Translations under genes and position numbers: made by a program
Shown: positions 5,001 to 43,095 of the stretch, in pieces
How positions within the stretch are numbered: position 1 is the stretch's first letter
How the letters are laid out: each line of letters begins with the position of its first letter
The notes under the pieces: generated by a model
What the model saw: only the letters and a program-made list of their open reading frames with translations
Databases searched by the model: none
Told to the model about the DNA's origin: nothing
Assembly: GCA_013239625.1 (NCBI GenBank)
Contig: MU053652.1
Location: 248,001 to 312,000, forward strand
Source of the DNA: Lama guanicoe
Lineage: Eukaryota
Length of the DNA stretch: 64,000 bases
Direction of reading: 5' to 3'

Positions 5001-5140
5001 CACTGACGTTTTTTTGCCTGAAAGTTTGGCCCATAATTTCACAAAGTAGTTTCTGTCTGTAGAATTCAGGCACTCCCAGTCACTCGAACCTCTAAACTTC
5101 CTAGGAGACTTTTCAGATTTCAGCTGAGGTTGTTTAATAT
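5001..5140 (-). CDS. LRGUK: LRGUK internal coding exon (probably exon 16, canonical C-terminal isoform): (D)IKQPQLKSEKSPRKFRGSSDWECLNSTDRNYFVKLWAKLSGKKTSV
   Basis: 140 bp, phase 1 to 0. Acceptor ttttttttccccctagcAG at 5141-5142, donor GTAAGA at 4995-5000. Matches recalled human STDRNYLIKFWAKLSAKKT. Not present in the ORF track; found by manual translation. Confidence 0.92.
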
Positions 5141-13299: not shown

Positions 13300-14040
13300 C
13301 TGCTCTGTCCCCACATCCAGTCCAAATACCTTGCATCTGCCCATTCCTGCTACGACGCCTTATTCAGGCCCTTACCTTTCTGTCAGGACTACTGCCATGG
13401 TTCTCAGCCATTCTTCCTGCCATCTGTATTGCTCTCCTTAAATTAAAGTGATCCTCCATGCCAACTCTGAGACGGGTGCCTCTTAGATAAAAAAACTAAC
13501 CATTCCATGGCTCCCCGTGGTTAGACGGTCAAGTTTCCAAGCTCCTTAACATAGCACAAAGTGCCCTTTGGCTCTACATGCACCTACTCCTGACAGCTGA
13601 GTGCTCAGAAGATGCTACGCCTGCTCTTGCCTCCATGCTTAGGCACACGCTGTGCCCTCTCCTAAGGGACCTTGCCCTCTCTCCCATCTGTCTGCTGACT
13701 ACTTCGCAACCTTGATGGCTTAGCTGAAGGATGAGCTCCTCTTGGAAGTGGTTTCTGACCCAATTCTCACATCCCAGGCTGAACTCAGTGTCCTTCCTTA
13801 GTTTTCTTATGACATTTTGGAAAAGTTAAGAATTGGGTTTTCTTGTCTATTTGATGCTAAACCTATCCTAGCTCACTGTGGGGCCTCCAGTTGCCCTAAT
13901 CACATGGTATTATAATGAACCCTCTTATCTCCTTGATGAGAGAGAGAGCTTCTTTAAGTGTCCTCATCAGCTCACTATATGTAGCCACCATCATGGTGTC
14001 TGGTGTATAAGAAGTGCCCGATCAATCCTGTTGGAGGACT
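13300..14040 (+). mobile_element. L2 LINE relic
   Basis: Pyrimidine-rich L2-like 3' region. Similar relics at about 6580-6960 (reverse), 31960-32520, 34560-35010 and 57820-58400. Boundaries are approximate. Confidence 0.5.
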
Positions 14041-15315: not shown

Positions 15316-15321
15316 TTTATT
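15316..15321 (-). terminator. Candidate polyadenylation signal (AATAAA) for the large alternative terminal exon
   Basis: Plus-strand TTTATT at 15316-15321, about 510 nt after the TAG. It is the first canonical hexamer I see downstream of the stop. Confidence 0.45.
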
Positions 15322-15833
15322 TTGCTTCTGGACCTCTCAATAAAGCAAGAAGCCTGAGAAATTTTTCTAATCTAGAAGTGAATTTCCCTAATGAAGAAAA
15401 CGAAACTTACTGCCAGTATGGCACTGCTTCAGCTGGAGCTGGAACTCATGTTAGAATTCGCACAAGTCTGGACCAAAGGCTCCTTGCTGACACCAACTAT
15501 TAAGACCAGCTCTATCAGCTGGCAGCAGGGGTACCACTTGCTGGGTATCCCTCCAGAGGGCGCTCTTCCAGGCTGCGATGGCAGGCCACAAAAGAGACGC
15601 AAATGTGCAAAGACTGGCAGCCTTCTAAGACTCTATCCACGGGCCCCACCCTCACTGACTTGGGGTTGCGGAGGGAAGCTGGTGTACAGACCACAGTGCC
15701 CTGGGATGGCTTATACCTCGCTGCTCTGACTGCCCCGAGCCCGCAGCCTTCCCTTCCAGCTGCCCTGTTCCTCGGCAGACACCTGCTCCTGGGCTGCGGC
15801 TGGGCTGCTATTCCGCGGTGCTCCCCCATGTTT

Positions 15834-17875
15834 CTAGGGATGTCTCTTTCTGGCTTGCTGCCTGGAAGCACTGTCCCTTTGGACCGAGCTCTCTCTGGTC
15901 TGGCTGGTCCCCTGATGGGTGTGCGTCTCTTTAACAGGCTGCTGGGCGGGGGCCACGCCATCCTGCTCTGAGGGTTCCGGAGCAGTCTCTCCCTTCTGAG
16001 AACTTCCTCTTCTATGACTCTCTCTCTTTCTTCTTGGATGTCCTCCAGGAGCAGAAGTGCTTGGTGGTGACTCTGCAGAGGCATCCTCAGTAGGTTTATT
16101 TTCCTGAGATAATCCTCCAGGATTATTTCTTTTTGAAGGTGGTCCCTTTTTAGACATGGCTACCTTCTGAACCTGGGCATTTAGGGGGAGGTTGGTATGG
16201 GCCTTTTTCCTGGAATAATGTACTTTTCCCCTTTTCTCTTCCTGTAACTGGGCCTCTGTAAGTAACGGTGCTGTATGGGGTGGGTCAGCAATGCCTGGTG
16301 TATGGCCTTTTTCTCTCTGGTCCCCCTGACGGCTCCCAAGAGGGCTGGGGTTAGGGGGGCTGGGCGCCTCTGGGGGAGTGGGCTCTCTCTGGGATTCTGG
16401 CTGCCAGGCTGCCTGCTGGCCTCCAGGTGGCGCCCGTCTCTGATGTGCAGGCCCCTTAGGAGTCTCTTCGTGGGTGGGGAGTTTTTTTTTTCTAGCTCCG
16501 GTCTGCTGCACTGGCTTTTGGTTTTGGGGCGAGGCCTGTATGTCTGGAATCTTCTTGCTAGAGGAAAGGCCTGCTTTGGGAGCCTGCCTTTCCTCTGCAG
16601 GCCTCGAGTCACGCTGGGCTGCCCTGGTGTTCTGCGGCAGCTGCCGTTCGGAGAAAGAAGTGGGGATCTGCGGGAGCTGAACTGCCTGAGCCCCCTCTTC
16701 CTGGGGCGGATCAGGGGCAGGCTGTGGAGCCCGGTCCTGGGCGGGGGGACTGACAAGAGGGAGTTTCACCTCCCTGACTTTCTCCTCCTGGACTTGCCGA
16801 GGACTGTGGCCCTGATGGGGGCTCCGAGTCTGTGGCTGCTTGGGACGAGGGGAACTGATGGGAGGCAGTTTACTGGGGTCTCCTTCCTGAGCTGGCGGGG
16901 GCCTGGGAGAGGGAGTCAGGGTCTGATCTGAGGCGGTCCCTGAGGCCCCCGCCCGGCTGGGTGAGAGGAGTTTGGGTGTGGGTCTCCGACTCTGGAGGGG
17001 AGCAAGGACCCGGGGCTGGGGCAACCTGGTGGGAGCCAGCCGGCTTGTGGGAGGCAAAGCCACTAGGTCTTCCCTGTCCTGGGTCTGTCTGGTGTTTGTT
17101 GAGCCCTGAGGGTGTGACAATTCTGGGTAAGGAGTGCTGACCCGGACAACTTCAGCTTTGGGGACTCCCTCCTCTAGAGGTTGTTGAGAATCTCCCAGAG
17201 GTGGTCCAGGTGTCTTGGCCTTGTCAGGACCAGAAGGATCTCTTGGAGCATGATGGGAACTGTTGGGTGGCAGGCTGGCTGACCCAATTTCCTCATCCTG
17301 CGTTCCCTGGGGGCTGAGGGATGTTGGGCCAGACCTCTGTGCAATTTCAGACGGGGGAGGGCCGGTGGGGAGCACTGTGGCCTCCCCGGATTCCTCATCC
17401 TGGTTCAGCTGAGGGCTGCGCGCTGGCAGTGGGTCAGGGTGCCGAGGAGGCCCTTGGGAAGGAGTTGGGGAAGGCTGCCCTCCTTCACTGGCTTTCACCC
17501 CGGATGTCTGGGCCTCATTTTCAGGGAGATTTGTGGTTGCCGTTTTGGAAGAAAGATCTGATTGTTGAACACCCTCATCCTTCTGGTTTGGAGCCTCCTG
17601 GGGAATACCAGGCGCTGATGTGCTGGGCTGTGGAGGAGGCTCGGCGCTGCCGTGGCCACGGGGAGAAAGCTCTTCTTGATGGGTTGCTCCCTCCTGAGTC
17701 AGCTCTTGGTTCTGGGAGGGAGCTAGGCTCTGATTTTCAGGGACCTTGGCAGGAACCTGCATTCCAGAGAGATGCTCTGTCATCCGGCCATCGGCCTGCA
17801 GTTTCGCCAAGCGCCTTGGGGATGGAACCAGGTGTGCTGGCACCCCAGAGGCAGTCTTCTTGCTAGAGGGAGCTC
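15834..17875 (-). CDS. LRGUK: LRGUK large alternative terminal coding exon, ~680-aa Pro/Gln/Ser/Arg-rich low-complexity tail (GAPSSKKTASGVPAHLVPSPRRLAKLQADG...RQQARKRHP*)
   Basis: By far the longest ORF in the window (669 aa, 15834..17843). It extends upstream in frame to the acceptor ctaacttctttttatattgaagcAG (AG at 17876-17877; branch-like CTAAC). Phase 1 matches the donor at 23857. TAG stop at 15834-15836. Confidence 0.85.
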
Positions 17876-19194
17876 CTGCTTCAATATAAAAAGAAGTTAG
17901 CTAAAAACATCTCAACAGGTACGACGATGTAACTTTAGAAATTAATAACAAAAAATCTTTCCCTTGGTTGATGCACACAGGCCCTTGAAAAGAATAAAAT
18001 TACACATACAGAAGAATTTAACTGCCCCTTCTCCTTGGCTACAATTTTTCTTATTTAGTGGAATTAGAGCAATTTTTAGTCAATGGAAGACATACACTTT
18101 AATGAATAAACATAAAAAGGCTTATTCACAGAACCAAAATCTACACTCAAGTCTGAGAGTGATAAGAAAATTTTCTAAGTGAATGAGATTTTAAAATTTT
18201 CACCACCTTAGAGGTCAGTGCTGTTTTTGATGGTAGAAACTAGACGATGGCCATCTAACCCAGATAAAGTCGCATTTGTTTCCTTGTTTAATGGCCTTTC
18301 TCCTTGTCCTGTAAAGAAACTGTGAGCTCTCTGAGGAGTCGTGCCAGTTTACCAGTGACCAGCAAGGCGCAGAAGCTCAGCGAGCACTCAAAAAATAAAC
18401 GATGAGTGGAAGGAGGGAAAGAACAGATCCCATGGACTCACAAGGCTCCAGGGCTCAGAGGAGCTGCTCCTGAGGACCCACCTTCCAAGCTGCTGCCCCA
18501 CCCCCACCCCCACCCAAGGGCTACCTCTTCCCTCCAAGTCTCTACCGGCTTTAAAATTGGCTCTCAGAGGCCACTAGCAATACTGATGCTGCAGAGGGGT
18601 GTCCCTGCTTTCAGTCGCCACCACGGGAAAACATTCTGGTCTCACGGACAGTCTCACGGACACAGTCACCCCACAGACACCTGCTTACGACAGAAGCCCT
18701 GATATATTCTGCCCACGTACCACTTTAACCCAGTCTGGCTCTGAAATGCCACTGGTCAGAGGTGGCACCCCAGTCTGCAACAGCCTTGAAGAAACTAGTC
18801 TCCTCTTATTTGGGGGCACACCAGACACTCAGACACTCCACACCAAATCAGACCTCGGAGGTGAACCCACGGTGGTCCAGCCCCAGAAGAAAACCAGGCT
18901 CCTGGCCGCCTTCCTCTCTCTCCCCACAAAGCAGGATGAGCTTGGACTACTCTGGCTTCTCACGGAACTTCCTAGTCTGGGCGTGTACCCCGTGCATCCA
19001 GTCAAGCCAGGTGTCCTGGGGGGGGTGGAGGCGGTGAGAAAGAGAGGGGGGACAAGGAAACTCTTGCCTCTGGTGGGGTTTCTGAGGGGCTGCCCTGTTC
19101 TCTATTCTTATCACCCTAGCTTATAACAGTTATAAGTTAAAATACAAATTTAGTTAAACAAGGTTAAAATAAAACATAAGAAGAGTGAAAATAT

Positions 19195-22436: not shown

Positions 22437-22447
22437 TCTATTATTAT

Positions 22448-23857: not shown

Positions 23858-23953
23858 CTGCAGTTGGAGCCAAAGTCTTGGCAGTTTCCTCCGACAACCC
23901 TAGGTACTCTCGAATGAGCTCACTCAGCCTTTGGTAGGCAACATCCAGGTCAT
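23858..23953 (-). CDS. LRGUK: LRGUK internal coding exon (probably exon 15), end of GK-like domain: (D)DLDVAYQRLSELIREYLGLSEETAKTLAPTA(G/D)
   Basis: 96 bp, phase 1/1. Acceptor cgtAG at 23954-23955, donor GTACCA at 23852-23857. DDL..A...L..LI terminal helix of guanylate kinases. Lies inside ORF 23751..24011. Confidence 0.95.
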
Positions 23954-24054
23954 CTACGGTAAAGGAGACAATGTGCTTTAAAGCAACAGAATTACATTCA
24001 AATAGAGTCAACCCATCGTAATGGTTTTTTAGCTAGATCTAATTTTATGAATAT

Positions 24055-24545: not shown

Positions 24546-24747
24546 CTGCATTGATTACTGCATCAAAATATCCTGGGAAGTCCTGACTAATTTTAACATA
24601 AAGGTCCACTCTGGAGACAGCAAATTCAATCTCTACACGACTGAATAATCCTTTTCTCCTCAAGTAGCCCTCATATTTTTTCTTGTTCATGGGTACCACC
24701 AGGATATATCGAGGCTCAAAATAGGAATGTTTTAAACTTCTTACACC
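24546..24747 (-). CDS. LRGUK: LRGUK internal coding exon (probably exon 14): GVRSLKHSYFEPRYILVVPMNKKKYEGYLRRKGLFSRVEIEFAVSRVDLYVKISQDFPGYFDAVINA(D)
   Basis: 202 bp, phase 0 to 1, open frame. Acceptor cgtAG at 24748-24749, donor GTCAGT at 24540-24545. GK core/LID region ending in FD.VIN.D. Confidence 0.96.
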
Positions 24748-26286
24748 CTACGCATTTAAAGAAAACGTAATAAATTAGAACCAGGGACACAATTTAGAAG
24801 TCATTTAGGAGACATGAGACAATACAGGTATAATAAACAGTACTGTATTTTATTTGTATAAGTAGCTATTACTTTCCTACTAATATCTCAGGATTGCATT
24901 GCTTCTCTCTGTTCATCAAATATTACATTATCATTGGAAATACACCAATTCATTCTGCCCAGTTATCCTCTAATGAATCACTCTAATGAATCTGACTGTT
25001 ACAAGAGAAAACCGCTAGATACAAATAGGTACACTCACAGCAGTATTGCATCTTTATTACTGGAAAGTAATTTCAATTCCACATTTCAAAAGGCACCCTT
25101 GCAGTCCCAGGAGACAGAGATCTTAGCAGAGAGAAAGGCTCTTCTGTTACATCTTTGTCATCAACTTGGGCCCTTCCTATTTTGAAACCAGCAACCTGGT
25201 CGGCTACTTCCTATGACATCTCACAGCTTGTCCTCAGAGCACGGGAAGGCCAACCTTGTGGTACCCTGGTAACTGGGAGCCACATAACCAGGGAAGCGGT
25301 TATCAGGTAGTGCTCTGTGGATCTGGAGGGTGGGGTCATGACTGCAGCTCTCCAGCTACTGTGACTCCACGTAAATCCCTCAAACTCCCTGAGCATCAGT
25401 GTCCTCACCTGTAAAATGAAACTTATTCCAAATGGACTCTAAACATCTCATTCCTACCATCAATAATTTAATTTAGTGCTCAAAATCATTTTAAAAAAAT
25501 CAAGGGGAAGAAATACAGACTCTTTAAAAATAGTTTCTAAAAGATTCAATGATAAAAACAGTTTGGTAAATGGTTTATTTGGGAGAATCACGAATAAAGC
25601 CTGGTTTATAGACTCAACCTCTTGGAAAGGAGTAGGAGAAAGCTCTCAGGGAGGAAAAAAGGTAAACAGGGGCCAGCACGCAGAACCACTGAACTGGGAA
25701 AAGGTAGACACAAGTTGCTGGAGAGCTTCTGCACTGAAGGATGCATTAATTCCTGTTTCTGCCTTGTCCAAGGAAGACATTTTGGGAAAAAGGTCTTTTT
25801 TTGGCTAATTAGCATAGAAACAAAGTAAACCCTCTTAAAGATGTAAAACCAATCAATTGCAGAAAGATAAGAACAGCAGGATTTTGAAGTTAGGAAATTT
25901 AATGAGCCGGAAGAAACGTGACCAGTTTCACTGAAGTGAGGCAACACTTAGACCAACACAAGGAGCCAAAAAGGAATCACAGTCTCCTGCTTTTCAAAGT
26001 TACGGAGGAAAAAAGTTTTAAGGAAGATTCAGCTGACACTAAGGAATATGAGACCTGCCTAGATTTTGTTTCCTGTAAGCGTGGTCTAATGGCATCCTTT
26101 TTATCACTCTTCTTTCTGACTACAAAATGTAACAGTGCTCAGAGAAGGTAACTTGCAAAAAAAAAAAAAAATCAGCTATCTTTGAAGATCTCAAATATTT
26201 AATAAAGCCATGTATTTTCAAAACAAATGAGTGAGATATTGTTGGTTTTACTCTGGATTTGATTTTAGAGAAACTTCTCTAGATTC

Positions 26287-26502
26287 TTTTTTTTTAAATT
26301 GAAGTTTAGTTGTTTTACAATGTTGTGTTTAGTTTCTGGTGTACAGCATAGTGATTCAGTCATATGTGTGTGTATGTGTATACATATATATATACACATA
26401 CACATACTCACTCTTCTTCATATTGTTTTTCATTATAGGTTATTATAAGCTATTGAATTTACCTCCATGTGTAGGGAGGTAGGACCTCGTCGTTTTATGT
26501 AT
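26287..26502 (-). mobile_element. LINE-1 3' end fragment (same family as the 50833-52275 element)
   Basis: Poly(T) followed by aaattgaagtttagttg...tttctggtgtacagcatagtgattcag, the reverse complement of the L1 tail seen at about 52200-52270. Confidence 0.8.
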
Positions 26503-27513
26503 TTCTTATATTCTAATTACAGAGGATCACTGGGGGAAGACGGGATACCAGGGAAGAGAGAAAACCTCCTGAAACCTGCAAGTCTGAGTTGCTGGAACTA
26601 TTGCCACCAGTGAGCAGCTGAAATGGAATGCAGTGGAGCCCACATGTCTCCCCTAGGGGAGGAAGGGGCAAGGTCAGCTGTGTGAACCTGCCACTGTCCT
26701 GTGGGGACAGGGAACTGGTTCTGCACCCTGTAGGAAACAGATTTTCCTTTATGTCACTTATATAAACAGAGGCTGTGCTCTAAAAAGAAAAAAGGGATAA
26801 TTTAGTGAGGAAATAACTTAGAAAATAAATCCTGAGTGGCAGTTTTACTCCACAGTGTTTGGGCAATTTCCTGTTTTGTAATATAACTCCTGTCATTTGA
26901 ATTATTTATATCTTGCCTCCCTTAAGTTAATTACAAACTTAAAATCTCACACTTCTGTTTGCATTCCTCTTGGGCCTAGCAGCGTGCTGCCGGCCCCCTG
27001 TACCCCCTCCCCAATCCCAAATGTACATACGCAAACTCACAAACACACATTAAAAATATACTGATTGATCCGGAATAAAATAAACTGAATAAATAAAATA
27101 AAGTGAAGTGGGTCGGAAAGAGAAAGAAGAATGCCACATGACATCATTTATATGAGGAATCTAAAAAATAATAATAATAATGAGGACACAAAGGGACTAA
27201 TTACCATTCTGATTTCTTGAATATGTGTAAGCACATTTGACTGTCCTTTATGATTGGATTACTGCATTCTGTTGATTCTTATTTTGTAGTTGGCTTTATT
27301 CCTTTGATAACTATGTAAGTTTAAAAGGTTAACGATCTAATATGTTCTTAGAAATAATAATTAGTACATATATGTAAACTAAAGGACAATGTGCAGTATA
27401 CTGTATATATGTATTTACATGCAATATAATGTGTATGTGCAGTCGAACTGTAATAATTCTACATAATAAAACTGCAAAAGGAGAAAAAAATTGATTGAAT
27501 GAAAAGTACTCAC

Positions 27514-27627
27514 TTCTATTTCCATATGAACACAGCTTGCTAAACCATCTCTTGCGATACCTTCTATGGTGTCGCGACTTAATCCATACTTGTGATTACC
27601 GTAATTAAAGGTTAGAATGAATTTCCC
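27514..27627 (-). CDS. LRGUK: LRGUK internal coding exon (probably exon 13): GKFILTFNYGNHKYGLSRDTIEGIARDGLASCVHMEIE
   Basis: 114 bp, phase 0/0. Acceptor tttcAG at 27628-27629, donor GTGAGT at 27508-27513. Lies inside ORF 27415..27657. GK-like 'F...Y.N.YG' segment. Confidence 0.96.
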
Positions 27628-30600
27628 CTGAAATTTAAGAAGTACAAAGATTTTCATATAACAGCTGCCATCATGGAATTTAATATAAATAAAAAAATTT
27701 GATGTTTTATTTTATATGATTTCATAAAAGTTATAAATATTAGCAATTATATAAGGATGCCAATGCATTTATGAAACATAATAACAAATTGTGATGGAGA
27801 AATTCATTCAGGAGTCTCAGCTGGCAAAACAAATTAGGTTTTTGGAAATAATCTGCTGACCAAATGTTTGAGCAGAGGGAAGGCACTGAAGCTCATGGTA
27901 AACAGATCATTTGCTGGCTTCCCCATCCCCTGCCAAACCTACACTATAAACCTCCATTACTGAGAAGGCAAAACTAATACGTCACCCTTTGCCTCAGCCA
28001 TTTCGGCTCTGCCAGCACACCAGGTCTCTCCCCCAAAAGCTTCCATTCTCAAAAGCCTCGCACTCGCAGATAAGCCTGCAGGCCATGGATTACAGGGATG
28101 TCCTAAAACCTTTGCAGCCTGAGATAAGCCATGAAAAACAGATCCGTCCTGCTTTTCCTTATAAACATCGCTTTTTATTGAAACTGCCCCAGATGTATTC
28201 AGCAGCATTGTGTGCCCTCCAGTCATTTTAAGTATAAATACTGCCTTTGCTCCTTATTCTGGAAGCCCAGTTCTTCCCAAAGCTGTATTACCGTGCCAAA
28301 AAAAAAAAAAGGCAAGTAGAAACACACATCTCAAAATTGTCTGACTTTTTCTCTGAACATATTTACTGAACAACAAGGTTTAATCTAAACTGGAAGGCTG
28401 ATGACAACAGAAGGAATAAAAATGTGGACATTCTTGGCAACCGTGACTCCTTACACACGTTGATTTTGAAATAAATAATGATGTGAAAACTCCCAAGGCT
28501 GAATCCCATCGATTGAAGCCCATCAAACGGCAGCACCGCCATTAGAAACAGTAAGAGTTAAGAGTCTTTTATGCTACCCTGTGCCTCCTGGCCCCAGGTT
28601 TTCTGGAGATCTGTGGGGATGGGGGGCAGGCTGTCTGTTGGAGGGGGTGTTGGAAGGCCAGGAGACATAGGGTGTCCCTCACAGGGGTGAGTCTTTGGGG
28701 GATGTGTCTGCTGTGAGTGATGAGGAAAAGCCACACACAACATAATCGAAAGAAATTTATGTCATGGATTCTGAAAGTTAAAATCTCAACAGTAAATATC
28801 CTTACTGTTTGACTTCCTCAATGTCGTGTACTCTTTGTTCTTTCAAACACACACTGTGACTCCTTTCCTTTTAAAATCTGTAGTCTTATCTATTTGGTAA
28901 CTAGGCATCTGATGCCCCCATAAGGTATGTATTCGATTTTGTTCACTGTGAGTCTGTTTTTGTAATGTCTGTTTGAATCCCCTTTTCAGATACATACTAC
29001 GAGTTTGTTTACTTGTGTGTACGAGGGTCTCCCTCTGTGGATCCCAAAAACATTTTCTGGAAGGATGTTTGGTTGGGAGGAATCTTGCATTGTTACTTGT
29101 GTGTCTAAAACAGGGCTTATTCAACGGATTTGTTAAGAATTGAGATGAAGTGGTCCCCCAGCTCCTGGATAGTCCTTGCATTGTTCCCTATGGATTTTTT
29201 AATAAATAGCAGTAATCATACTTCAGAAACCTCCAGATCTGTGGTCTTATTTCCACAAAAGAAGAAGAGACTCTGTAGGTAAGTGACTGTGTTTATGTCC
29301 TTAAACGGGGCTCCTGTGTCTACGGGCACACGGGGTGGGGGATGATCTGTGTTTGGGGGTGGGGGTGGAATGTATATGGAGGGGTGTGGGAGTTAGGTGT
29401 ACCTGTCACAGAGCGTAGGTGGGACTGTCCACAGCAGGTGAGCAGGGCTGTCTGTCAAGGTGGGGACTGTGATTTGGGAGGGGGACAGGCTGTCCGGGTG
29501 AGCGTTCCATGGAGGGGGTTTCTGTGTACAGAAGGCTGAGTGTGTGGGCGTAACTGGTAAGGCTGACCATGTGTCTTGAGTTTCTCATCTCTAGGTTTGT
29601 CTCTCTTCATGAAACAGCCTCAAGCTTACCTTCAAGAAAAGAAGATCTGAAGCAAAATCCAAGTTGAAGATAAAGAACTTACAGTGAAGTAATATATGCT
29701 AGCAGAAGCAGTAAAAATGAGTACTTCTCAAACACGCAAGAACTTCTGTGGAGGGAGTGAAAGTAGAAGACTAGATCTGGTACAGAAGCACAATGATTTC
29801 CTTCTTAGGCTAGAAACGGAACCAGGCTTACTTGACTACAGATACGATAAGGAGTGAAACATCAGAGGAGCATGTGAGGCACTGAGGACAGATGAATTAA
29901 CCAAGAGAAAAATGTCTCAGACTCTAACGAGAGAAATTAACATCAATTTTGGGAACTACTTGTCTTTCAGCCCAGAGTCCTAGGAGAATGCTTCTTACTA
30001 ATGTCAAGATAACTCCTCAAATTTCTATTACGGCTTTTAGAAATATGAAGTCCCAGAGTACTCCTGATACTTTAGACTGAACTTCTAAAACACAGCCCTA
30101 GGAGAGAAAATCATAAAGAATTTCCAAGAGGTTCTCTTGACAAGATTAGAGCGAAAATATCCTGGTGATTATAGGACTTTCTCGCTTGGGTTTCTCTGTG
30201 AAAGCTAGAGAAAACGCGCACCCCGTGTAACGCTGGCCGTTCCAAATTAAACTCGTCGCAACTAAGAGCCTCTTGCTTTAAGTGCTCCAGAAGATCTAAG
30301 CTCGTGCACTGAGGTATAAGCCAGCTCCATTTTGGGGGGAAGAGGCAGAGAAAGGATGGAAGGAGAAAGAAGAGAGGGGAGAGGGGGATGTAGCTATAAA
30401 AGCATCACTGGTTGGATGGTAATCTTTCAAAAGCAGAAATATAAACTTATCCTTAATCCAGTCTTTCAGTAGGCTTCAGGAAAAAACAAGAGTGGTGTAG
30501 GATTCATTTGGTGATAGAAAAGATGATAATATAAACACAATTAAGGCCCATGGTGAAGAGAAAATAAAAGGCTTACAGATTCATCAGTAGTGATGAATAT

Positions 30601-31527
30601 GAGATACTCTCGCTGTTTAACTGAAGTCATGGGTGGATATGTATTGACATTAGCATATACTTTTGGCAGATAAAATACACCAGGGTTGTGAGAATTCCCT
30701 TTGCATGTAAAGACCAAGAAAGAATGAATTTTTTTTTTAGGAAATGAACTCAGAGACAAGGATGTCATGAATTATTACCAATAACTAGATTTGTCAGGGT
30801 TCAGGGAAAAAAATCTTCAAATTGAGTAAGATTTCCCATAGCTAGTATGAAATGGACTAGGGCAGGGTAGTTAGCCTCACCTAGTAAAGACACAGACCTC
30901 AAAGAAATGAGGAGTCCTCTCTGGTCTAATGGCAAGGGCTTCCACCTGCATTAGTGAACTGCCTGCCCTCCAGAACTCAGGACTTCACACACAGGGATGT
31001 CATGGTGGGAGATTAAGGCTGTGGACATGTCCAGGGCAGACCAACTAAATGGGATATACCAGGGTGAAATGGAGCTTAGGGTTGCAACGATCAGAAAGCA
31101 CCAGTGATGGCAAACAGAGGGAGTGGTCTCTGGACAGAACAATCCAACCCCCTGAAGTGCTCAGTTCACAAGCTTGGTGCATCCCAGCAGGTCTGTGAGA
31201 ATTGTTTGTCTTGAGTAAATCCAATCAAGAAGAGAAGCACCTGATCAATACAGATCTAAAGAACTTTTCGTGGTGTCCTTCCTCCCAGCTTCTTAATATG
31301 TCTGTTTATTTAGTTTCACTGGAAATTTATAATATTTTCTCCAAGATCATAAAATCAAGCAGCATGTGAACAATGATGTATTAAATGCTTAAGGAAAAAG
31401 TAACTCAGTAAGAACACATCTCTCATGAAAAAACAAATATAATTGTTCTCTTTCTTATTACTATTTCCTAATATTTCTACTGGAGAACTTGTCTTTCTTG
31501 TGCGATAAAAATTGAGAACATTCTTAC

Positions 31528-31624
31528 CATGTTGAACATTTCATCAAAAACTTCTTGAGAGATGAAATGATAATCAACTCGATCTCCTTCTCCAAAGTAA
31601 GGTGGTCTTGTGGTGTGAAAGGGC
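31528..31624 (-). CDS. LRGUK: LRGUK internal coding exon (probably exon 12), GK GMP-binding region: (G)PFHTTRPPYFGEGDRVDYHFISQEVFDEMFNM
   Basis: 97 bp, phase 2 to 0. Acceptor ttttcAG at 31625-31626, donor GTAAGA at 31522-31527. Guanylate kinase signature HTTRxP..GE...DYHF. Confidence 0.96.
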
Positions 31625-32874
31625 CTGAAAACATAAAGCAGGTAACCTCCTCATCTAGTTCCATTAACTTGAAATTCAAAATGGAAAAAGTTTTGGTCTA
31701 GACTATGTTTAAAAAAATACTAAAATTGATCCACAAATCATAAATCATAAGTAACATAACTGTGAAAACCCTGAGGTTTTACAGTGCTCGGCTACATTCA
31801 CTTGCTGTATTCTACAGGGATTAGACAAATTCCGGATTATAGACACCAAACTTTCACTCTTTGTTCTTTATCACCTCCTGAACCACCTCCTCTGATACCA
31901 CATCATAACACTTTGAGATATAACAATATTTATTATCCACAGGCTTTTCACCCCACTGTTTTCATGCTGTCTCTGATATACGGGCGCTTTCTGCATGCTT
32001 CCCTCCCCATTCCTCTGCCTGGCTGACTCACTTGTCTTTCAGGACTCAGTTTAAGCATCACTTCCCTAAAAGGCCTTTCCTGACTCCCTGTCGCTGAATT
32101 TCACACCTCCTCTTCATCTTTCCAGAGCCTCAGTGCCTACCGCCATCTGCCTCCCAGCCCCTGTTCAGGATCCCATCTCCTCCGCAGCCTGAGGGCAGGG
32201 ATGAGCTCATTCCACTGTCCCCGCACAGTATCGATACTGTGCATGAACCTCCCATGGGAATCCAGGACGCCAGTGCCGAATGGAATTCTCAGCCCAGCCA
32301 GAGAGGCCTTTCTGCTCGCCCTCTGATACAGCATCCCCACTCCATCCTGCCACACCCCCAAGTACTCTCCATCACCAAAACTACCTTCTTCTCTCTGTTT
32401 TCTTCCTATCTTCCCCAGCAGGACGTGCGAATCATGAGGGGAGGACTTCATCTTGCTCATCTCATCTGCCACTGCATCCCCAATGCCTCGCATTTATTAA
32501 ATATTTGCAGCATGAATGAATTAATGAAACATGAAATGGATGTGATGAACTCCATTTTAAGATGACTACAAACATGACTTGTCTGAGACCAGGCCAGGAT
32601 CAGTCCCAGACCCAGAAGTGCAGGCATCCCAGCTAGGCCAGGACTCTTGATTTTGTACCATTCTGACCTCCCAATGTTAAGTTCTGGGAATGCAAACTGA
32701 TCTTTAGATTATCCTACGGTTTTAAAATAAGAGATGCAAGCTATTAGACACATGATACACTATTTCATTTACTCCTCACAGAAAACCATGAGGTAGGTGT
32801 TACTGTTTTTATTTTATAGAGGATAAAATTGAGGCAGAGCAGTTATAAGTAATGTGAGTAAGAAACAACAGGAT

Positions 32875-32929
32875 CCTGCAACTCTCTGAAGCCAGAGCTA
32901 CATAGCTAGCATGAAAAAAAAAAAAAAGA
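32875..32929 (+). mobile_element. Tiny retroposed insertion: 39-nt body plus poly(A), flanked by a perfect 15-bp TSD
   Basis: aagaaacaacaggat occurs at 32860-32874 and again at 32930-32944, enclosing cctgcaactctctgaagccagagctacatagctagcatg plus A14gA. Confidence 0.8.
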
Positions 32930-35900
32930 AAGAAACAACAGGATGACACCAAAGTCAAGTTCTTTCAGCATCACACTAAAAGGGTAAAGTCGCAACCTCA
33001 AAATCCTCTCCATTACAAAGTCAAAGACAAATGGATTTTCATAGCTCATACCACGTTCCTCTTCCATTATAATCAAGAATTAACTATCCTATAAATTCGA
33101 AGGTCTTAACATTACATTTAAATTGTATATTCAGGAAAGAGAGCATATTCTAAGAGAAGAATGTCAAAACACACAACATTTGTTGTGCTGTTTGGGTACA
33201 CTGGCATTCCTCCACACCCCTTGGCAGGGACTTGAGACCCTCTGTCTACAGGACAGATAACTCAGTAACTTGACATCCTGTACTGCACACCCTTAGCATA
33301 TCCTTTATGCACTGCACTGAATTTGCATTTTCCAGCAAAGGAATTGAGTGGCAGGGATTTTTGTCCAGAATTTCTAAGAAGAAAACAAAGCAAAGAAGCA
33401 ACTCAAACTTCTAGGCAGGTAAATAAAGAGATGGCTTCACTGACACGGAAAATGCTGATGACAAAACCGGCAGCCACTGCAGAACTTTCTGTTAAGAAAG
33501 ACCTAAGATGACCTGTGGTTTTTTGAATCTGTCATCCAAGTCTCACATATGGAAATGTTCGCTGTGTAGTATGCCACCCAAATACGAACATTTTAAAAAG
33601 GAAATACTTCATAGAAAAGCAATATTTGACTAAACTTAGAAAAAACATGATACCAGACTTTAGGGAAGAAATTTGCCTGGGCCATCACCTTGAATATTGC
33701 TCCTCTCCCGTATCTAAATATAATTTCACTTGTAATTTACATTTCCATAAGTTTATTATTACTAATTAATTTACTAGTTAGATGACTGTAAATTAGTCAA
33801 ATCATGGTTTGTAATGGGAGCCATAGTCCCTTGTTACTTTCACTTAACAGACAAAAGAGTTGACTTAGCAATTAGCCCCAGGATATAACACTGGTGCTAA
33901 ACTAAGGGTGAGTGGGTTAGCACTCTAAAGGCCAATTCATTGGCCATCTGTCATTGATGACCCTAACAAACCATCTCCACAGACAGGAGAACATGATCAG
34001 GAGGGAAAGGAATCTGGAAAGGCCAGGCCAAATAATGAAACGTTAATATACCCAAGAAAACGTAATAGGAAGAAGAAAAGATATCTAAGAAAGCTAGCAG
34101 ACGGACGAGGACACAGACATTTCTTCAGTGTGATTCAGAAGCATGCAGATTTAGAATCTCAATTCCGGACCAGATTGCCTCAAGAAATAACGAACTTCTT
34201 GTCACTGTAAATATTTAGGCAGCGGCTTGGCTGTGAGCTCATCCAAATTCAAGTACGTTATAGCATGCCATATTGTTAGTTAGGGAGCTCTTTCTCTGGG
34301 GAGCCACAACAGCCCAGGTATTCCTAGGGCATTTGGTAGGCAAATGAAATTAATCCCAATGCTCAGTGCAAATAAATGTCGGTATTGCTGGACACAATTA
34401 AGAGATCATGAGCACAGCAGATGCCAGCACGTACTGTGTCTGAGCATCAGATTCCAGGAAGCCACTACTCTATTCACTTTCCGGTAACTACATACCACTC
34501 TCTAATTCATGCCATCTACATCCGTCACTATATCCTAAGCAGTGATCTTGTCTGCAGCCTTCCCTCCCCAAGCCCTCCCCGAAACTGCCCACAGGATGTA
34601 CTTTCTAAAACGCAGCTGTGATCACGACACGCCCCTGCTTAGAGACTCTTGATGCTCAGACCCCGGTCTACTTTTCTGGTCTTATCTTCTGCCATCTTCC
34701 TCCACACCTCAAGTCCAGCCACACTACAGTGTACTTTCAGTGACCCAAATGTGCCCGGTGTTCTGCCTGCCTGGAATGCAATCTCCACTCCCCAGTCACA
34801 TCCCACTATCTTTCACTTCAGTCACAGAGGCTCTTTCCTTCCCACACACAGTACCCAACAAACTGTCCAGTTAGACAGCATTTATTCATCATCTAAATCT
34901 CACACTAGGTGCAAGCTACCAGGAGGACAAGGGCCATGTCTGCTTGGTTTCTAGTTTTCTCACTGGAACCGGGCACATGGATGGTGCTCAGTAAACACTG
35001 ACTGAGGGAATGGATGCACCATCCTACCAGTCCGCCACATCTGCATAAACGGACAAGAGAATAGATGGTGCTTGGGCAGCCATAGCTCAGACCATCTCAT
35101 TTAGCTAAATAGCTGTGGTCTTTTACTTCACTGTAGTCCAGTCCTAAAAGGAAAATCTAGTAGTCAATGTCATGGAAAAGGTCATAAAAATAGAGATTGC
35201 TATAAAACAGAGATCTAATGAAGAAGCATAAAGTTATGCTTCTATGACTTTTCAGATCACTTTCAAGGCCTCACGTCTGGAAGATGAACACGCACGCTGC
35301 TATTGTTGTACGTTTCTCTCATTACCCAGCATGCTTCCAGGAAGCCACAGGTCTGCATGGTAATATTAAGATTGGAAATAAATGGAGAGACTCGGAAGGT
35401 GGTAAATGCCTATTTCCATGCCACTTACAGCTAACACAGGTAAAGAAAGAACATCCAGCCTATTTTTAAAACCAAGAACAAATAATAAAATCAGAACCTT
35501 GGACAAGGGCACAATCTCTCGGCCACACCAATAATTTGTTATACTACCGAGCTATGGTTTTAATATGGATACCTCTGGATATGCAACTTAGCATGTGAAA
35601 ATTTCATTGAATGTCTTGGTTCTGGGTCAATGCAATTTAAAAAGGAAGAGAAAAGTGCCAGGAGAAAATGAAATAGATAGGAGGGAAAAAAAAGATTCAG
35701 ACAAATGGCAGAGAAAGCACCTTTGTAAATGCTTATGTGTTTCACAATAAGACTGTACATATGGCCTTTTTTCTTTTCAGTTAATAAAAATCAATAAAAT
35801 GTATGCTGGATAAAGAATAAAAGAAAAGAAAACCTAAACAAGAACAATGACTTGCTCCTGAGGATGTGCTTCAGTTTTATCATTTGTTTTAATCAGAAAG

Positions 35901-36780
35901 TTGCTGCATTAAATTAGTAGTACTACCTGACTTTCTCATTGCATGAAATGACTAGTTCGCTAACACCTTTTTTATTCAATGATATGCTCTTTGATCCACG
36001 CCTTGATGGAATTCTTAGAATGATTTGCCACTGAACAACCCTGACCTCTGCCTCCCGGAGGATGCCAGTGCCTGGTTGGATGCTGCGTCTGAGCCTGTGA
36101 GGGAAGTGGGTGAGTGAGCAGGGGGCACTTGTGAGTGTCTTCCCACTCACCACGAGAAACAGCAGTGGCAGCGGTAACAGTGAAGGAGCAGGAAGCTAAT
36201 TTTGGGATTTTGTTTTGCCACCTTGTACCTCCACACAAATTGCACATGACACTAACTATTTAAGGTCTCAGTTCCCCACCAGATTACAAAGTTCATTAAG
36301 GCAAAGACCTCACCAGTCTTGTTCCCACCGTATCTTCAGGGTCAAGCACATGGGAAGAAACCGATAAACGTTTATCAAAAGAATGGATGGACAAATCCCT
36401 CCGTCCCTTCTTATCCCCATCGGTGGAAGTTGGGGAAACCACCTATGCTTCTTATTACAGTAATTCCCTGCTAAACATTTCATACAATAGCATTCATTCA
36501 TTCCTCCACCAATTCACTCAAGCACTTAGTCATTCATTTACCAAATATTTCTCATGCATTTATTAAGTGCCTGGCTACCTGCTGAACATTGAGAACTCAG
36601 TGGTAAGCAAAGCTGACGTTGGTGGTCAGCTTACAGTCGAGCAGGCAAAACAAGCGTTAAATACATCATCACAAACATGATGGATAAATATTCTAATAGG
36701 TGAAAGGAGGATTTAATAAGAATGAACACTGGCGGTGCCTATCCAGGAGAGAATGTAGAGGCAGACTGGACCAGAAACTT

Positions 36781-36868
36781 TCTTTGGTGTGTGCAGGTAC
36801 TGGGGATTAAGCCCAGGACCTTGCACATGCTAAGCATGTGCCCTATCACTGAGCTATTATTATCTCCC
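36781..36868 (-). mobile_element. tRNA-derived SINE, Vic-1-like (camelid)
   Basis: Reverse complement reads ...tagctcagtgatagggcacatgcttagcatgtgcaaggtcctgggcttaatccccagtacc: A-box, degenerate B-box and tRNA-Ala-like body. Imperfect flanking repeat cagaaacttt / cagaatcttt. Family name from recall. Confidence 0.75.
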
Positions 36869-38227
36869 TTCACCCCCAGATCAGAATCTTTATGATCAGT
36901 TAATAAACACCTCCAGAAACACATCTGACCCAGAGTGCCTCAGCGGTGCCCATCACAAGTAAACATGAAGGACGGGCTACCAGCCATCTGCAACCTAATT
37001 GGTGTCAGAAATGTGAAAAGAATTTTAACTGGAGAAAGCCTTGGCTCCCATAACTCACTGCGGTTTGCTGAAAGGTTCCAGATTTACGTATTAGCACTGT
37101 GGTCGGGACACACCTTTTTGCTCTAATTGGATCATCCATTCATTGTGTCTTACTTATTTTTCAAAACAGGTTCCGTACCACCATATAAGCATGATGACAC
37201 TCTGTACTTTTTTATTCTAATATCAAGTTTTAACTTATTGTTGTTGCTTCAAGGTGTTTAGAATATACTAATGGATAAATTGTTCTATGTATTTGTATCC
37301 TAGAACTGTCCAAATGGGGGATGTAATGTTAGATCTCTAAATAAATGGACCTGTTTAAAATAGTGTTTACATTGTTTGAACATGTGTAGCTTCAGGGAAG
37401 GAACTTTTCTGTAATAGCATTAGAAAATAATTTGCATTTCTCTTTCTTTCTGTCCTATATATCTTGGCAGACACATTCTCGGCTCACTGGCAAACATCAC
37501 TAATCTAAAAGTAATGTTTTTGCCATAGATGAAAAATAAGAGAAAACCAGTTTTAAAGACCACAGCAGTAATTCTAAATCTGACTCCCTGAAAACTTTTA
37601 AAAAGTCTGTAAATCCAGCTGAAGATTTTCTTGGATGGTTCTAATTTTTTGGATATAACCTTCTATTTTAACTGGGTCATTAGGGAATCACGCAGCAAAA
37701 TATTTGCTCTGGAAAACCAAAAGTATATTGAAGGCTAACCTGAGGAAAAGGAAAAGAAACACTTTTGCTGCCCCTTTTCCTTCCTCTTCCTCTTCCTCCT
37801 TCAGGAAATATGCCTCCAAAGAGGAGGACCCGTGTGCAAATGAAGCAGCTGATGGCTGGCAGCATGAGCTCCAGCAGAGACCAGGAGAGGCTGTCACCGG
37901 TGCACAAACCTACCCACCACCCATCACAACACTGTGATTTGTGTTGTCACACCACACACAGGAGGAGACCGCGTTTCAACACCACTGGGCTTAATTAAAG
38001 CCACGTGTACCTTCCAACACGTGGAGAGTGATTTCGGTTGTTGAATTAAGTAAAACATTTGGAGAATTAAAGTTAAAAAAAAAATTACAGTGTATATCAC
38101 AGTGTAACACCTAGTAAAGATGCTCATAAGCCTTCTATGTACATTTTTAAAAACTTGCTTAAAATTAATAACCAACATTTGCAATATTAGACATGTGACA
38201 GCCTTATCAGCCAACAAAGAAACTTAC

Positions 38228-38347
38228 CCGTATCTGAAGTAAGTGCTAAACTGCCTGCAGAGGCGATGAGCGAGCTCTCGTTTACCACACGCTTGAGGAC
38301 CAGCCAACACCAGAATGGGATACGGGGCATCCAAACTCGGAAGGGTG
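38228..38347 (-). CDS. LRGUK: LRGUK internal coding exon (probably exon 11), start of GK-like domain with P-loop: (S)TLPSLDAPYPILVLAGPQACGKRELAHRLCRQFSTYFRY(G)
   Basis: 120 bp, phase 2/2. Acceptor gcAG at 38348-38349, donor GTAAGT at 38222-38227. Hydrophobic strand followed by Walker A-like GPxxxGK. Confidence 0.96.
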
Positions 38348-39309
38348 CTGCAACACGGGGCAGAGGCAGACACGCGTGTTAACTGCATCCAGGGTGGCAA
38401 GTGTCCAGGTCACAACCACCGTAAGTTCAGCAATCCAGCACCTGCTCTATGTAGACACTGTATAGAAGGATGGTCCTACTTTCCAGATGCAAGTTGGTTA
38501 TACTATGCCCCCAAATTTACTTTAACAACAATTTTAAGAGGAAAAATACAGTAAGAGGTATTAATTTTTGGTTGATAAAGTATTGCCAAGAAATTCAAAA
38601 TAAATGAAGTAAGACTACCCTCTCAGAGGGAAACTTTAACATCCATACCTGTTGAATCAGAACACAGATACACAAAGAAAACAGTAATTACTAAAATTTA
38701 CCTGAGCAATTACTATGTTCCAGGCACTACTCTAGGAGTCTTGTGTGCATTTCCTCATTTAATTATCACAGGAGGCTAATGAAGATGTTTCTGTCATGAT
38801 CCGCATTTAACACAGGAAGAAACTGAAGTACAGAGAGGTTAATAAACTTGCTCAAAGTAATGGCTACTAAATAAGAAATGTCATGTGAATCTACGCATGG
38901 CTTCTGGGTCTAAAAGACTGAAGGATGAATTATTAATAAAATCTCTTGCCACGTGCTGAAGTGTTTGGGTTCCACTCATGACACAACTTATAGAAATTCA
39001 GAAGAAAATATTATTTTGAAAATACACGTCTGAGGTGTAGATTCTCGGAAGAGTGGGGGCAGTGCAGCATCATTTTTCAATCTCGCTGAATACTCAGAGG
39101 AAAACTTGAGAACCAAAACCCATGGAAAATATGTATAACAAAACCAGATGAAAAGCCGCAAACCCACCAGACTGTTATGGCACTGGAATCTGTGCAGGAG
39201 GAAGAACAAGGGAGCAGTGGGCAGAGTCTGAGAACAAGGGAACCCCAGAAACCCCAGAACAGTGGGTATCCTGTGGAAAGCAGGCAGGCTGAAACTGGGA
39301 CATGTCCAA

Positions 39310-41520
39310 AAGCCTGCATGTGAATGTTCCTCATAGATGTATTTGTAGCAGCCAAAAACTGGAATCAGCCCAGATGTCCTTCGAGACATGACTGGTTAAA
39401 CTAATTGGGTTCATTCATACCAAGGAATACTATTCAGCAATCCAAAGGAGTGACCCACTGATACATTCCACAGCTTGGATGAATCTCCAGGGAATGAGGC
39501 TAAGTGAAAAAACCAGTCAATCCCCAAAGACTATATATATATATACAATATGATCCCATTTATACAGCCTTCTTGAAATGACAACATTACAGAGATGGGG
39601 AACAGATTATTGGTTGTCAGGGGTTAATAAGATGAGAAAGAAGGAGGTGGCTGTAGCTATAAAAGGGAAGGAAAGAGTTCTTTGTGACAAAACTCCTGTA
39701 TCTTGACTGGAGTGGTACTCACATCAATCTGCACATGTGATAAATTGCATAGAACTAAGTGTACACGTGAGTACATGCAAAACTGGTCAAATCTGATAAG
39801 GTTGGTGGATTGTACCAATGTCAGTTTCCTGGTTTTGACATTCTACTAGAGCTAAGCAAGGTAATACCATTGGGGGAAACTGTGAAAGATACACAGAATT
39901 TCTCTGCATTATTTCTTACAACTGTATGTGAATCTAAAATTACCTCTAAATATTTTAAGTGATTAAAGAGAAAAAGTTTTGAAAGTGACAGATATGGAGG
40001 ATAGGCCAGAGATCTTCTTCCAGAAGAAGAAAAACAAAGCAAAGCAACAGAGCAAATATTAAAGTGTCATTCAAGAAAATTTTCCTGAAATTAAAAAAAA
40101 CAAACTATATAATGTATCCGAGAATATTAGTCCAGGGAACAACTGGGCTACAAATGTTGTAACAGTAATACCAAGACAGAGTCTAGTAAAATCATCAGAC
40201 TTTAAAAAAAAAAGGGAAAAAAACTGTTCAGCTAGAACAACACGTGATTCATAAGGGAAAGAAGACGAAATTGTCATCAGATTTTTGACAGCAATGTTTA
40301 CACTGAAAGTAAACAAGAGAAACATTTTTAATATATTCAAGGAAAAAAATGCGAACCATGGACTTTATATATAGCAAGAATGACTTTCAAGTGTAAAGGG
40401 CAGAGAATATTATCAACACACAAGAGTTCAAGAGATACTGATTCCACAGCCCTTCCTGAGGAATCTACTAGAGAACAGGCTTCACACAACTAGAATGACT
40501 CGAGACATCAGCACGAGGGCTGGCGGCGAGAGATCAATATGCAGTTACCCATAGAACTAGGATTAAATGACAGCAAAGGAGAAAGTACAGTACGTGATGG
40601 ATATGTGTTCTGACAATATAAATATAGTGCACTATTTTTAAAATGGAGTGATTGACGCTTATATGAAATATATACAGTAAGCAAATTCATTAAGACAGAA
40701 AGTACATTAGAAGTTACCAGGGTCTGGGAGTAGCAGGAAATGGGAGTTCTGTCTTAATGGTTACAGACTTTCTGTTTGGGGTGATGAAAAAGTTTGGGAT
40801 GCAGATGATGGTGATGGTTGTACAACACTGTGAATGTAATTAAAGCCACTGAACCACACACTTTAAAACGGTTAAAATGGCAAATTTTATGTTACAGATA
40901 TTTTCTGCAATAAAAACTCGAGGTAGGTAGTCAGTGGGAAGAGCACAGGCAAAATATGTTTTTAATGTTTTCAGTAATCATAGTGGTGATAGTATTAGCA
41001 CTGGTAATCTGATACTGTGGGGGTGTAATATGGGGTTTTAAAATTGAGTAATTGTGGGATATTCAAATTCCATCTTCCTGTGTCTTCAGTGAGAGAGAAA
41101 AGGAGATATAGATGTGACAGGAGGTTAAGGAAAAGCTCAACTGTAGTCTTGAAATTGAACTGTAAGTACCAATATGAATTCAGAAGGTATTTTATCATCT
41201 ATCTATAGATATAATGATCTAGATACAGATTAGATATAACAGATTGAATAGATACAGATAGATAGGTACAAATAGGCAAAGGGATGGATGGATGGATGGA
41301 TGGATGGATAGATAGAAAAAAATGGATGGGTGGAAGGAAGGAAGGAAGGAAGGAAGGAAGGAAGGAAGGAAGGAAATACATTCCTAGCTCTGTCCACTAA
41401 AAAGCCTAGAAACAATGGCCAACCCAGGAGCCATGATTATCTCTAGCATCCAGATTGTGATTGGGAAATACCACTTCTCACTAAAACAAACCAGGGCTTC
41501 TTGGAGAAATGGTTGATTTC
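39310..41520 (+). mobile_element. Cluster of old L1 fragments (L1M 3' ends, ORF1-like remnant at about 40050-40450, L1MB-like end at about 40660-40915)
   Basis: gaatactattcagcaat...ggatgaatctccaggg; attcaagaaaattttcctgaaatt (IQENFPE, an ORF1 motif); and a second L1MB tail resembling 19195-19435. Confidence 0.65.
41255..41376. repeat. Compound microsatellite (GATA)n-(GGAT)n-(GGAA)n
   Basis: Read directly from the sequence. It explains the LPSF/HPSI-repeat ORFs. Confidence 0.95.
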
Positions 41521-42988: not shown

Positions 42989-43095
42989 CTGTCAAAGATC
43001 CTCTGTGGCTGCATCAAGCTGTTGACAACGTGGGTCATGTGATCTTGGGCTGCGACCACCTCGGGGGGCGGCTTGTATTTATTCACGGCCATAAC
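42989..43095 (-). CDS. LRGUK: LRGUK internal coding exon (probably exon 10), linker: VMAVNKYKPPPEVVAAQDHMTHVVNSLMQPQRIFD(S)
   Basis: 107 bp, phase 0 to 2. Acceptor aaAG at 43096-43097, donor GTACTC at 42983-42988. Lies inside ORF 42805..43272 and matches recalled LRGUK VSAVNKYDPPPEVVAVQDHLTHVVNSVMQPQRIFDS. Confidence 0.94.

What the first reader, a model, noticed from the sequence alone, without database searches (positions are those of the whole stretch)
15316..17900. 2-kb alternative last exon gives LRGUK a ~680-aa disordered tail in place of the canonical C-terminus
Seen: the phase-1 donor at 23857 can join two in-frame acceptors. One, at 17875, opens 2042 nt of unbroken frame to a TAG, with an AATAAA about 510 nt later. 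The other, at 5140, continues the familiar LRGUK C-terminus. Established: LRGUK acts in sperm tail/manchette assembly, and the isoform I recall uses the 140-bp exon. Inference: two mutually exclusive C-termini exist on the same LRR-GK core, one a long P/Q/S/R-rich intrinsically disordered region. A 2-kb stop-free, GC-rich frame in AT-rich intron is unlikely by chance. It may already appear in predicted gene models, but I know of no functional description.
Basis: partly seen in the sequence, partly recalled or inferred. Interest (0 to 1): 0.7.

Follow-up and report, generated by a model that had tools for sequence, protein, structure and literature searches.

The report
Mammalian long-tail exon of LRGUK
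The sperm-tail gene LRGUK has a large alternative last exon, already listed in human, mouse and rat gene catalogues but apparently unstudied, that adds a floppy tail whose best-conserved piece looks like a docking motif for growing microtubule ends.

Summary
The exon is real and already annotated. Donor, both acceptors, the 679-codon frame and the AATAAA check out. Curated RefSeq isoforms in human (NP_001352629.1), mouse (NP_001388450.1) and rat (NP_001388453.1) carry this tail, and models exist from placentals to platypus.

Three corrections. (1) The TAG is premature: orthologs run 40 codons further to a conserved GRLRARGSQSTKV end, still readable here. (2) The ends are not strictly exclusive: dog RefSeq models splice from inside the exon to the 140-bp exon. 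(3) The short C-terminus is the ancient one; the tail was found only in mammals.

New here: the tail's most invariant stretch, [TS]RLPQP, fits the EB-binding SxIP consensus (101 of 104 hits), followed by three [KR]LPxI motifs that echo the ancestral PxLPPI end. Known null alleles (mouse R528*, human R355*) remove both isoforms. I obtained no junction reads or peptides.

The parts
24547..57165 (-). Upstream LRGUK coding exons (late LRR region and guanylate-kinase-like domain) shared by all isoforms; the 5' exons were not found in the window
   Evidence: tblastn of horse, cow, rat, platypus and camelid proteins
23858..23954 (-). Last shared exon; phase-1 donor GT at 23857
17876..17900 (-). Branch-point-like CTAAC, pyrimidine tract and tandem (NAGNAG) acceptor; alternative AG at 17878 adds one Ala, matching the TAG/TAAG pairs of annotated isoforms
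   Evidence: one-residue isoform pairs
15834..17875 (-). Coding part of the alternative last exon in this genome: 679-aa P/S/Q-rich tail ending at TAG
   Evidence: 104 homologs
17487..17488 (-). GT at the position where canid and fallow-deer models leave the exon for the 140-bp exon; context here (CCA|GTGAAG) is a poor donor
   Evidence: the ortholog donor sequence is inferred from protein, not seen as DNA
17013..17030 (-). TRLPQP (tail aa 282-287): SxIP-type motif, the most invariant stretch of the tail
16848..16871 (-). First [KR]LPxI motif, KLPPISSP (aa 335)
   Evidence: 46 of 49 tails; coordinates
16743..16766 (-). Second motif, KLPLVSPP here (KLPLISPP in most orthologs; aa 370)
   Evidence: 46 of 49 tails
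16656..16679 (-). Third motif, QLPQIPTS here (RLPxIPTP in most orthologs; aa 399)
   Evidence: 44 of 49 tails
15834..15836 (-). Premature TAG; aligns with Trp in Bos, Cervus and P0108, so probably TGG to TAG (inferred)
15711..15833 (-). 40 in-frame codons after the TAG, 62-70% identical to placental orthologs, ending GRLRARGSQSSEV then TAA: the ancestral placental end, now presumably 3' UTR
15316..15321 (-). AATAAA candidate poly(A) signal
   Evidence: use not shown
13438..13481 (-). Third in-frame acceptor giving a 14-residue end (EAPVSELAWRITLI), matching Bactrian camel model X9
5001..5140 (-). 140-bp internal exon starting the canonical C-terminus; also a tandem acceptor; later canonical exons were not found in the window

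Best explanation
The interval is a conserved coding alternative terminal exon of LRGUK that arose in the mammalian lineage inside the intron before the ancient C-terminal exons. Splicing 23858 to 17875/17878 with cleavage after the intronic AATAAA gives a long isoform (about 1309 aa here, about 1350 in most placentals) that keeps the LRR and GK domains and swaps the roughly 210-aa ancestral end for a disordered tail (about 0.95 likely). The working part of the tail is a cluster of short linear motifs at aa 270-410; the distal third is dispensable and has been truncated repeatedly, here by a recent nonsense change. Most likely mechanism (inferred, about 0.45): the invariant [TS]RLPQP is an SxIP motif that binds EB proteins, so the long isoform couples the LRR-GK core and its HOOK/RIMBP3/KLC3 partners to growing microtubule plus ends in spermatids (manchette perinuclear ring or nascent axoneme), while three [KR]LPxI motifs replace, in triplicate, the single PxLPPI motif of the ancestral end. 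Shown: frame, splice signals, conservation, annotation, motif pattern. Inferred: splicing in this species, protein expression, EB binding, location.
For: Frame far beyond chance. 104 homologs from placentals, wallaby and platypus, plus bilby; curated NP_ records in three species. No Pfam family in the tail; the AlphaFold2 model of the camel isoform has pLDDT under 50 and no secondary structure over 657-1182. [ST]RLPQP is in 101 of 104 hits, the three without it being composite forms that leave the exon earlier. In 49 hand-picked tails the only invariant 4-mers are RLPQ and LPQP, the first position varies only between T and S, and 42 of 49 meet my version of the acid-free, basic context rule quoted in PMC4834103 against 0.21 such sites per shuffled tail. 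[KR]LPx[IL] averages 2.82 per tail against 0.07 in shuffles. Apart from those three composites, all 31 hits with another end stop or diverge after aa 387. LRGUK lies on manchette microtubules (PMC4363142) and the plus-end tracker CLIP170 is needed there (review PMC12123824).
Against: No junction reads, 3'-end data or peptides were obtained (one search gave no lay; searches found no tail evidence). SxIP is a short, degenerate pattern picked after looking at the alignment; about 19% of shuffled tails hold a strict site somewhere, and the conserved block around it (aa 273-308) is much longer than EB binding needs, so another partner may explain it. Seven of 49 tails fail the context rule. The species are related, so counts are not independent. 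The mouse paper reports a 93-kDa band with an antibody whose epitope the 148-kDa long form shares, and its text mentions no larger band (figure not seen). The sperm central-apparatus structure lists the 820-aa form. The fold model also scored the GK domain under 50, so it is a weak test of disorder. In this genome two of the three LPxI motifs have drifted and the end is cut. The alpaca RefSeq models I saw (X1 = 839 aa) are canonical only.
Confidence: 0.45

Rival explanations
1. The tail is a multivalent scaffold for some other proline-motif reader (an SH3 protein such as RIMBP3, an ankyrin-repeat protein, or whatever binds the ancestral PxLPPI end); RLPQP is a fourth LP-type site, not an EB ligand.
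For: The ancestral end carries PxLPx[IL] in 50 of 75 placental canonical isoforms and a like LPP[IL] motif in 14 of 30 non-mammal-type representatives; the tail has three conserved [KR]LPxI copies. PxLPxI/L is the ANKRA2/RFXANK consensus (PMC12066720). The conserved block is 35 residues long.
Against: The tail copies mostly lack the first Pro of the ANKRA2 consensus. RIMBP3 is reported to bind through the GK domain (review PMC12123824). Two paper searches gave no cilia-related LPPI motif.
Confidence: 0.3
2. The tail acts mainly as a phosphorylation-tuned disordered spacer or condensate former, the conserved islands being proline-directed kinase sites or direct lattice contacts.
For: 23 S/T-P sites in the window tail and basic patches; conserved SPRR, TPYP, SPSR and TPSPR islands.
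Against: The invariant residues are R, L, P, Q rather than the phospho-acceptors; length varies from about 400 to 870 aa.
Confidence: 0.12
3. The exon is functional in other mammals but decaying or little used in camelids, so the 679-aa tail of this genome is a relic.
For: Two different premature stops: camels at tail aa 552, this genome at 680; drift in the LPxI copies; no long model among the alpaca records seen.
Confidence: 0.1
4. On the stop alone: the TAG is an assembly error, a private allele, or is read through, and the species makes the full 720-aa tail.
For: The 40 codons after it are as conserved (62-70%) as the coding part before and end at the orthologous TAA.
Against: It is one transition from the Trp codon implied in other artiodactyls; the context TAG-AAA is not the CUAG read-through context I recall; camels and catarrhine primates have lost the same end independently.
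Confidence: 0.25

Closest known systems
LRGUK RefSeq isoform 1: human NP_001352629.1 and NP_001352630.1, mouse NP_001388450.1 and NP_001388452.1, rat NP_001388453.1; camel XP_031311250.1
   Same: Same exon, same junction position and tandem acceptor, same motifs; camel is 95% identical over 554 residues.
   Different: Tail end: mouse and rat keep the full GRLRARGSQSIKV end, human stops near tail aa 511, camel at 552, this genome at 679.
Canonical LRGUK-1 (mouse 820 aa, PDB 9IJJ; human NM_144648.3)
   Same: Shared LRR and GK core to the 23858 donor; the 140-bp exon is in the window.
   Different: Ends in about 210 aa with one terminal PxLPPI; only 1 of 75 such ends has a strict SxIP-like site. 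It is the form used in the mouse, human and structure papers I read.
EB-dependent SxIP plus-end tracking proteins (as reviewed in PMC4834103)
   Same: [ST]x[IL]P in an unstructured, proline/serine/basic, acid-free context.
   Different: One strong site rather than several; EB binding and tip tracking untested; the motif sits on an alternative exon of a central-apparatus protein.
ANKRA2/RFXANK ligands with PxLPxI/L
   Same: The canonical LRGUK end matches the consensus.
   Different: The tail copies are [KR]LPxI without the first Pro; no binding data.

Membership tests
LRGUK long isoform (RefSeq isoform 1) | LRR plus guanylate-kinase-like core upstream in the same gene and frame | tested here: met
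LRGUK long isoform (RefSeq isoform 1) | Tail exon homologous from the junction onward | tested here: met
   42-68% identity over most of the tail in placentals, 95% camel
LRGUK long isoform (RefSeq isoform 1) | Placental-type GRLRARGSQSxKV end translated | tested here: not met
   in-frame TAG 40 codons earlier; human and camel isoforms also lack this end
Alternative last exon | Consensus acceptor, in-frame stop and downstream poly(A) signal inside an intron of the longer transcript | tested here: met
Alternative last exon | Junction and 3' end seen in RNA of this species | tested here: inconclusive
   RNA runs hold part of the words; no lay was obtained
Alternative last exon | Strict exclusion of the downstream exons | tested here: not met
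   composite canid and deer models; probably met in camelids, whose internal donor is poor
SxIP plus-end tracking proteins | [ST]x[IL]P core | tested here: met
   49 of 49 tails; 101 of 104 hits
SxIP plus-end tracking proteins | No acidic residue nearby and a basic residue in the four before | tested here: met
   met in the window and 42 of 49 tails, with my own choice of 4 residues before and 5 after
SxIP plus-end tracking proteins | Motif lies in a disordered region | tested here: inconclusive
   composition and low pLDDT agree, but the folded GK domain also scored low in that model
SxIP plus-end tracking proteins | Binds the EB homology domain and tracks growing ends | not testable with these tools
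ANKRA2/RFXANK PxLPxI/L ligands | Pro two residues before the Leu | tested here: not met
   tail copies read SKLPPI, VKLPLI, VRLPxI

The most novel reading that the evidence does not exclude
Mammals converted an ancient central-pair structural protein into a second, plus-end-tracking adaptor by gaining one 2-kb exon: the long LRGUK isoform, not the 820-aa form studied so far, carries out the manchette and sperm-head-shaping role through an SxIP-EB link, while the short form builds the C1b projection. The published null alleles cannot tell the two apart because both lie in the shared core.
Probability: 0.2. Interest if true: 0.68.

Novelty: already known. Interest (0 to 1): 0.38.

Why it matters
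The exon itself is catalogued, so finding it is not new. It matters because the LRGUK papers I read work with the short form: the mouse study calls the 93-kDa form the longest transcript and the 2026 human report uses NM_144648.3 without the word isoform. Mouse R528* and human R355* fall in the shared core, so the dual phenotype (head shaping plus axoneme) may come from two proteins. The invariant SxIP-type motif makes this directly testable, and variants or peptides in the tail would be missed by analyses that use only the canonical sequence.

Tried and rejected
Read-level test of junctions and of the TAG: runs were found (24 listed, 20 holding part of the stretch, 7 of those on record as RNA) but no lay was obtained, so the shares are leads only. 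The whole genome was not available as a file. Ortholog DNA for dN/dS: the metagenome scan gave 192 pattern matches and 0 relatives, so no dN/dS was computed. Idea that the tail is the ancestral end, prompted finding the canonical end only in placentals (78 hits of 731 candidates): rejected, because frog, catfish, catshark, clam and crinoid LRGUK carry the canonical type of end and no tail block. Transposon, tandem-repeat or RNA-gene origin of the frame: no tandem array in the exon, no internal repeat match, no Pfam, Rfam or tRNA hit; no repeat library was available, so an old transposon origin is not excluded. ESM Atlas on aa 235-420: no usable hit. Literature on an LPPI motif in cilia: nothing relevant in the listings. 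Proteomic support: Lrguk appeared only as a microarray row in PMC7067585 supplements, not at all in PMC9440445 supplements or in the 12 of 42 supplementary files of PMC12297659 searched; PMC12153847 lists only Q96M69. No complex was predicted. Earlier scan notes: none on LRGUK.
Full report
Observation. The gene is LRGUK on the minus strand. Ten or more coding exons between 57165 and 23858 match the late LRR region and the guanylate-kinase-like domain of mammalian LRGUK. The exons match Vicugna RefSeq proteins best (GKKTSV, where camels have GKKTPV), so the genome is a South American camelid. The stop-free run is 688 codons; 1000 dinucleotide shuffles of 15316-17900 gave at most 371. Both acceptors are tandem (NAGNAG) sites, which explains annotated isoform pairs differing by one alanine.

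It is already annotated. The 679-aa translation (P0001) found 57 proteins among 7998 scored candidates of 1190-3395 aa and 47 among 8000 of 373-1189 aa, most named LRGUK, from all four placental groups, a wallaby and platypus. Cluster look-ups show NP_ records: mouse isoforms 1 and 2 (1340, 1280 aa), rat isoform 1 (1270 aa), human isoforms 1 and 2 (1131, 1130 aa). That NP_ means curated, usually transcript-backed, is my background knowledge. Camel models X1 are the long form. The alpaca records I saw are canonical only, X1 being 839 aa.

The TAG is premature. Horse, cow and rat proteins align through it to 15714. The 40 codons beyond it are open, 62-70% identical to seven placental orthologs compared, and end GRLRARGSQSSEV-TAA. 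70 of the 104 hits end in [RS]ARGSQ. The stop aligns with Trp in Bos, Cervus and P0108, so a TGG to TAG change is the simplest reading. Whether it is fixed in the species is open. Loss of the distal part is common: camels stop at tail aa 552, catarrhine primates near 511, and several bats, carnivores and rodents elsewhere, though some of those are partial or low-quality models. Most full ends read STKV or SIKV, which resemble PDZ-binding ends (recalled pattern, untested).

Not strictly exclusive. Canid RefSeq models X1/X2 (957/958 aa, several assemblies) and a fallow-deer model join the first 128 tail residues to the 140-bp exon and the canonical end. Porcupine and aardvark models join later points to the canonical end, and a fur-seal model leaves at aa 165; these may be prediction artefacts. 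In this window the equivalent internal GT at 17488 has a poor context. A third in-frame acceptor at 13481 matches Bactrian camel model X9.

Which end is old. A search with the canonical end found 78 proteins among 731 candidates, all named ones placental, which first suggested the tail was older. The wider search overturned this. Of the best 150 of 38071 representatives, I picked 30 LRGUK-like proteins of non-mammal type by eye: 14 end in an LPP[IL] motif like the canonical end and none holds a tail block. Five of them are named: frog, catfish, catshark, clam, crinoid. Among the 142 new representatives, tail blocks occurred only in a bilby protein and two unnamed fragments. So the canonical end is ancient and the tail is, on this evidence, a mammalian gain. 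No bird or reptile was identified by name, so the date is loose.

Anatomy of the tail. I aligned the window's tail with 48 orthologs chosen by hand, about one per genus. Conservation is in islands: aa 5-28 (predicted short helix), QDEESGEA, VSTPYPEL, a 35-residue block at 273-308, three [KR]LPxI sites and the end. Only 18 positions are invariant and the only invariant 4-mers are RLPQ and LPQP. With the preceding T (S in one species) this is [ST]x[IL]P, the EB-binding SxIP consensus described in PMC4834103. It is in 49 of 49 tails, meets my version of the context rule in 42 of 49, and such sites average 0.21 per shuffled tail. Across all hits 101 of 104 have [ST]RLPQP, and apart from the three early composites every different end falls after aa 387. 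The [KR]LPx[IL] sites occur in 46, 46 and 44 of 49 tails, 2.82 per tail against 0.07 in shuffles, and resemble the PxLPx[IL] at the end of 50 of 75 canonical isoforms. These species are related and the patterns were chosen after seeing the alignment, so the counts show constraint, not the identity of the partner. An AlphaFold2 model of the camel isoform left 657-1182 without structure, but also scored the GK domain under 50, so it supports disorder only weakly.

How it most likely works. The core binds KLC3 through the LRR and HOOK2-RIMBP3 through the GK domain (review PMC12123824), sits on manchette microtubules (PMC4363142) and in the C1b projection with SPEF2 (PMC12297659; the deposited chain is the 820-aa form). 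Choosing the intronic exon keeps all of this and adds a flexible arm with an SxIP-type site and three LPxI sites. I infer that the arm links the complex to EB-decorated plus ends during spermiogenesis (0.45), with a different proline-motif partner as the main rival (0.3). Against abundance of the long form, the mouse paper reports a 93-kDa band with an antibody to aa 336-427, which the 148-kDa form shares, and its text names no larger band (figure not held).

Literature. What I saw: PMC4363142 passages and section 8; passages of PMC13631085, PMC12297659 with 12 of 42 supplements (55), bioRxiv 2024.08.06.606614 (71), PMC12123824, PMC4834103, PMC12066720, PMC12153847; supplements only of PMC7067585 and PMC9440445. 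Okuda 2017 is known to me only through the review. None of these passages describes the long isoform. Searches for LRGUK with isoform (58 papers, 30 listed), central apparatus, SxIP/EB1/manchette, polyadenylation and last-exon terms, partner names, EB/plus-end terms and six long-isoform accessions (0 papers) gave nothing on it; most subscription journals are not in this library. Mouse R528 and human R355 are present in the long isoforms' shared core, so both published null alleles remove both forms.

Verdict. A real, annotated alternative last exon; ordinary as a gene structure, but with an unstudied product and a sharp, testable motif hypothesis. No RNA junction, peptide, dN/dS or binding evidence was obtained here.

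Noticed in passing
window 15834-15836 and 15711-15833: Premature TAG before a still-intact conserved C-terminal 40 codons; camels have a different, earlier stop near 16217, suggesting two separate truncations within camelids.
   Followed up: partly
window 13438-13481 (minus): Small third in-frame terminal exon matching Bactrian camel model X9; no AATAAA until 12232, ATTAAA at 12536 and 12505.
   Followed up: partly
window 13549-13810 (minus): Intron sequence similar (58-69% in two pieces, frames differ) to the alternative end of fur-seal and sea-lion LRGUK models of 871 aa.
   Followed up: no
window 16095-16100 (minus): AATAAA inside the coding part of the exon; if used it would give a transcript without a stop here, but lies after the camel stop.
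   Followed up: no
P0259, P0260, P0262, P0269 and other canonical LRGUK ends: A terminal [KR]P[VIT]LPPI motif is conserved from molluscs and echinoderms to mammals; I found no described partner.
   Followed up: partly
window 10904-11311: Near-perfect tandem duplication of 203 bp (99% match) in the intron; recent duplication or assembly artefact.
   Followed up: no
window 22400-23200, 19189-19413 and 47858-52300: Interspersed repeat fragments matching each other at 67-80%; they look like old LINE-1 ends (recalled, no library used).
   Followed up: no
P0152, P0155, P0160 (camel models): Camel models end a few residues after the 140-bp exon via other small exons not found in this window.
   Followed up: partly
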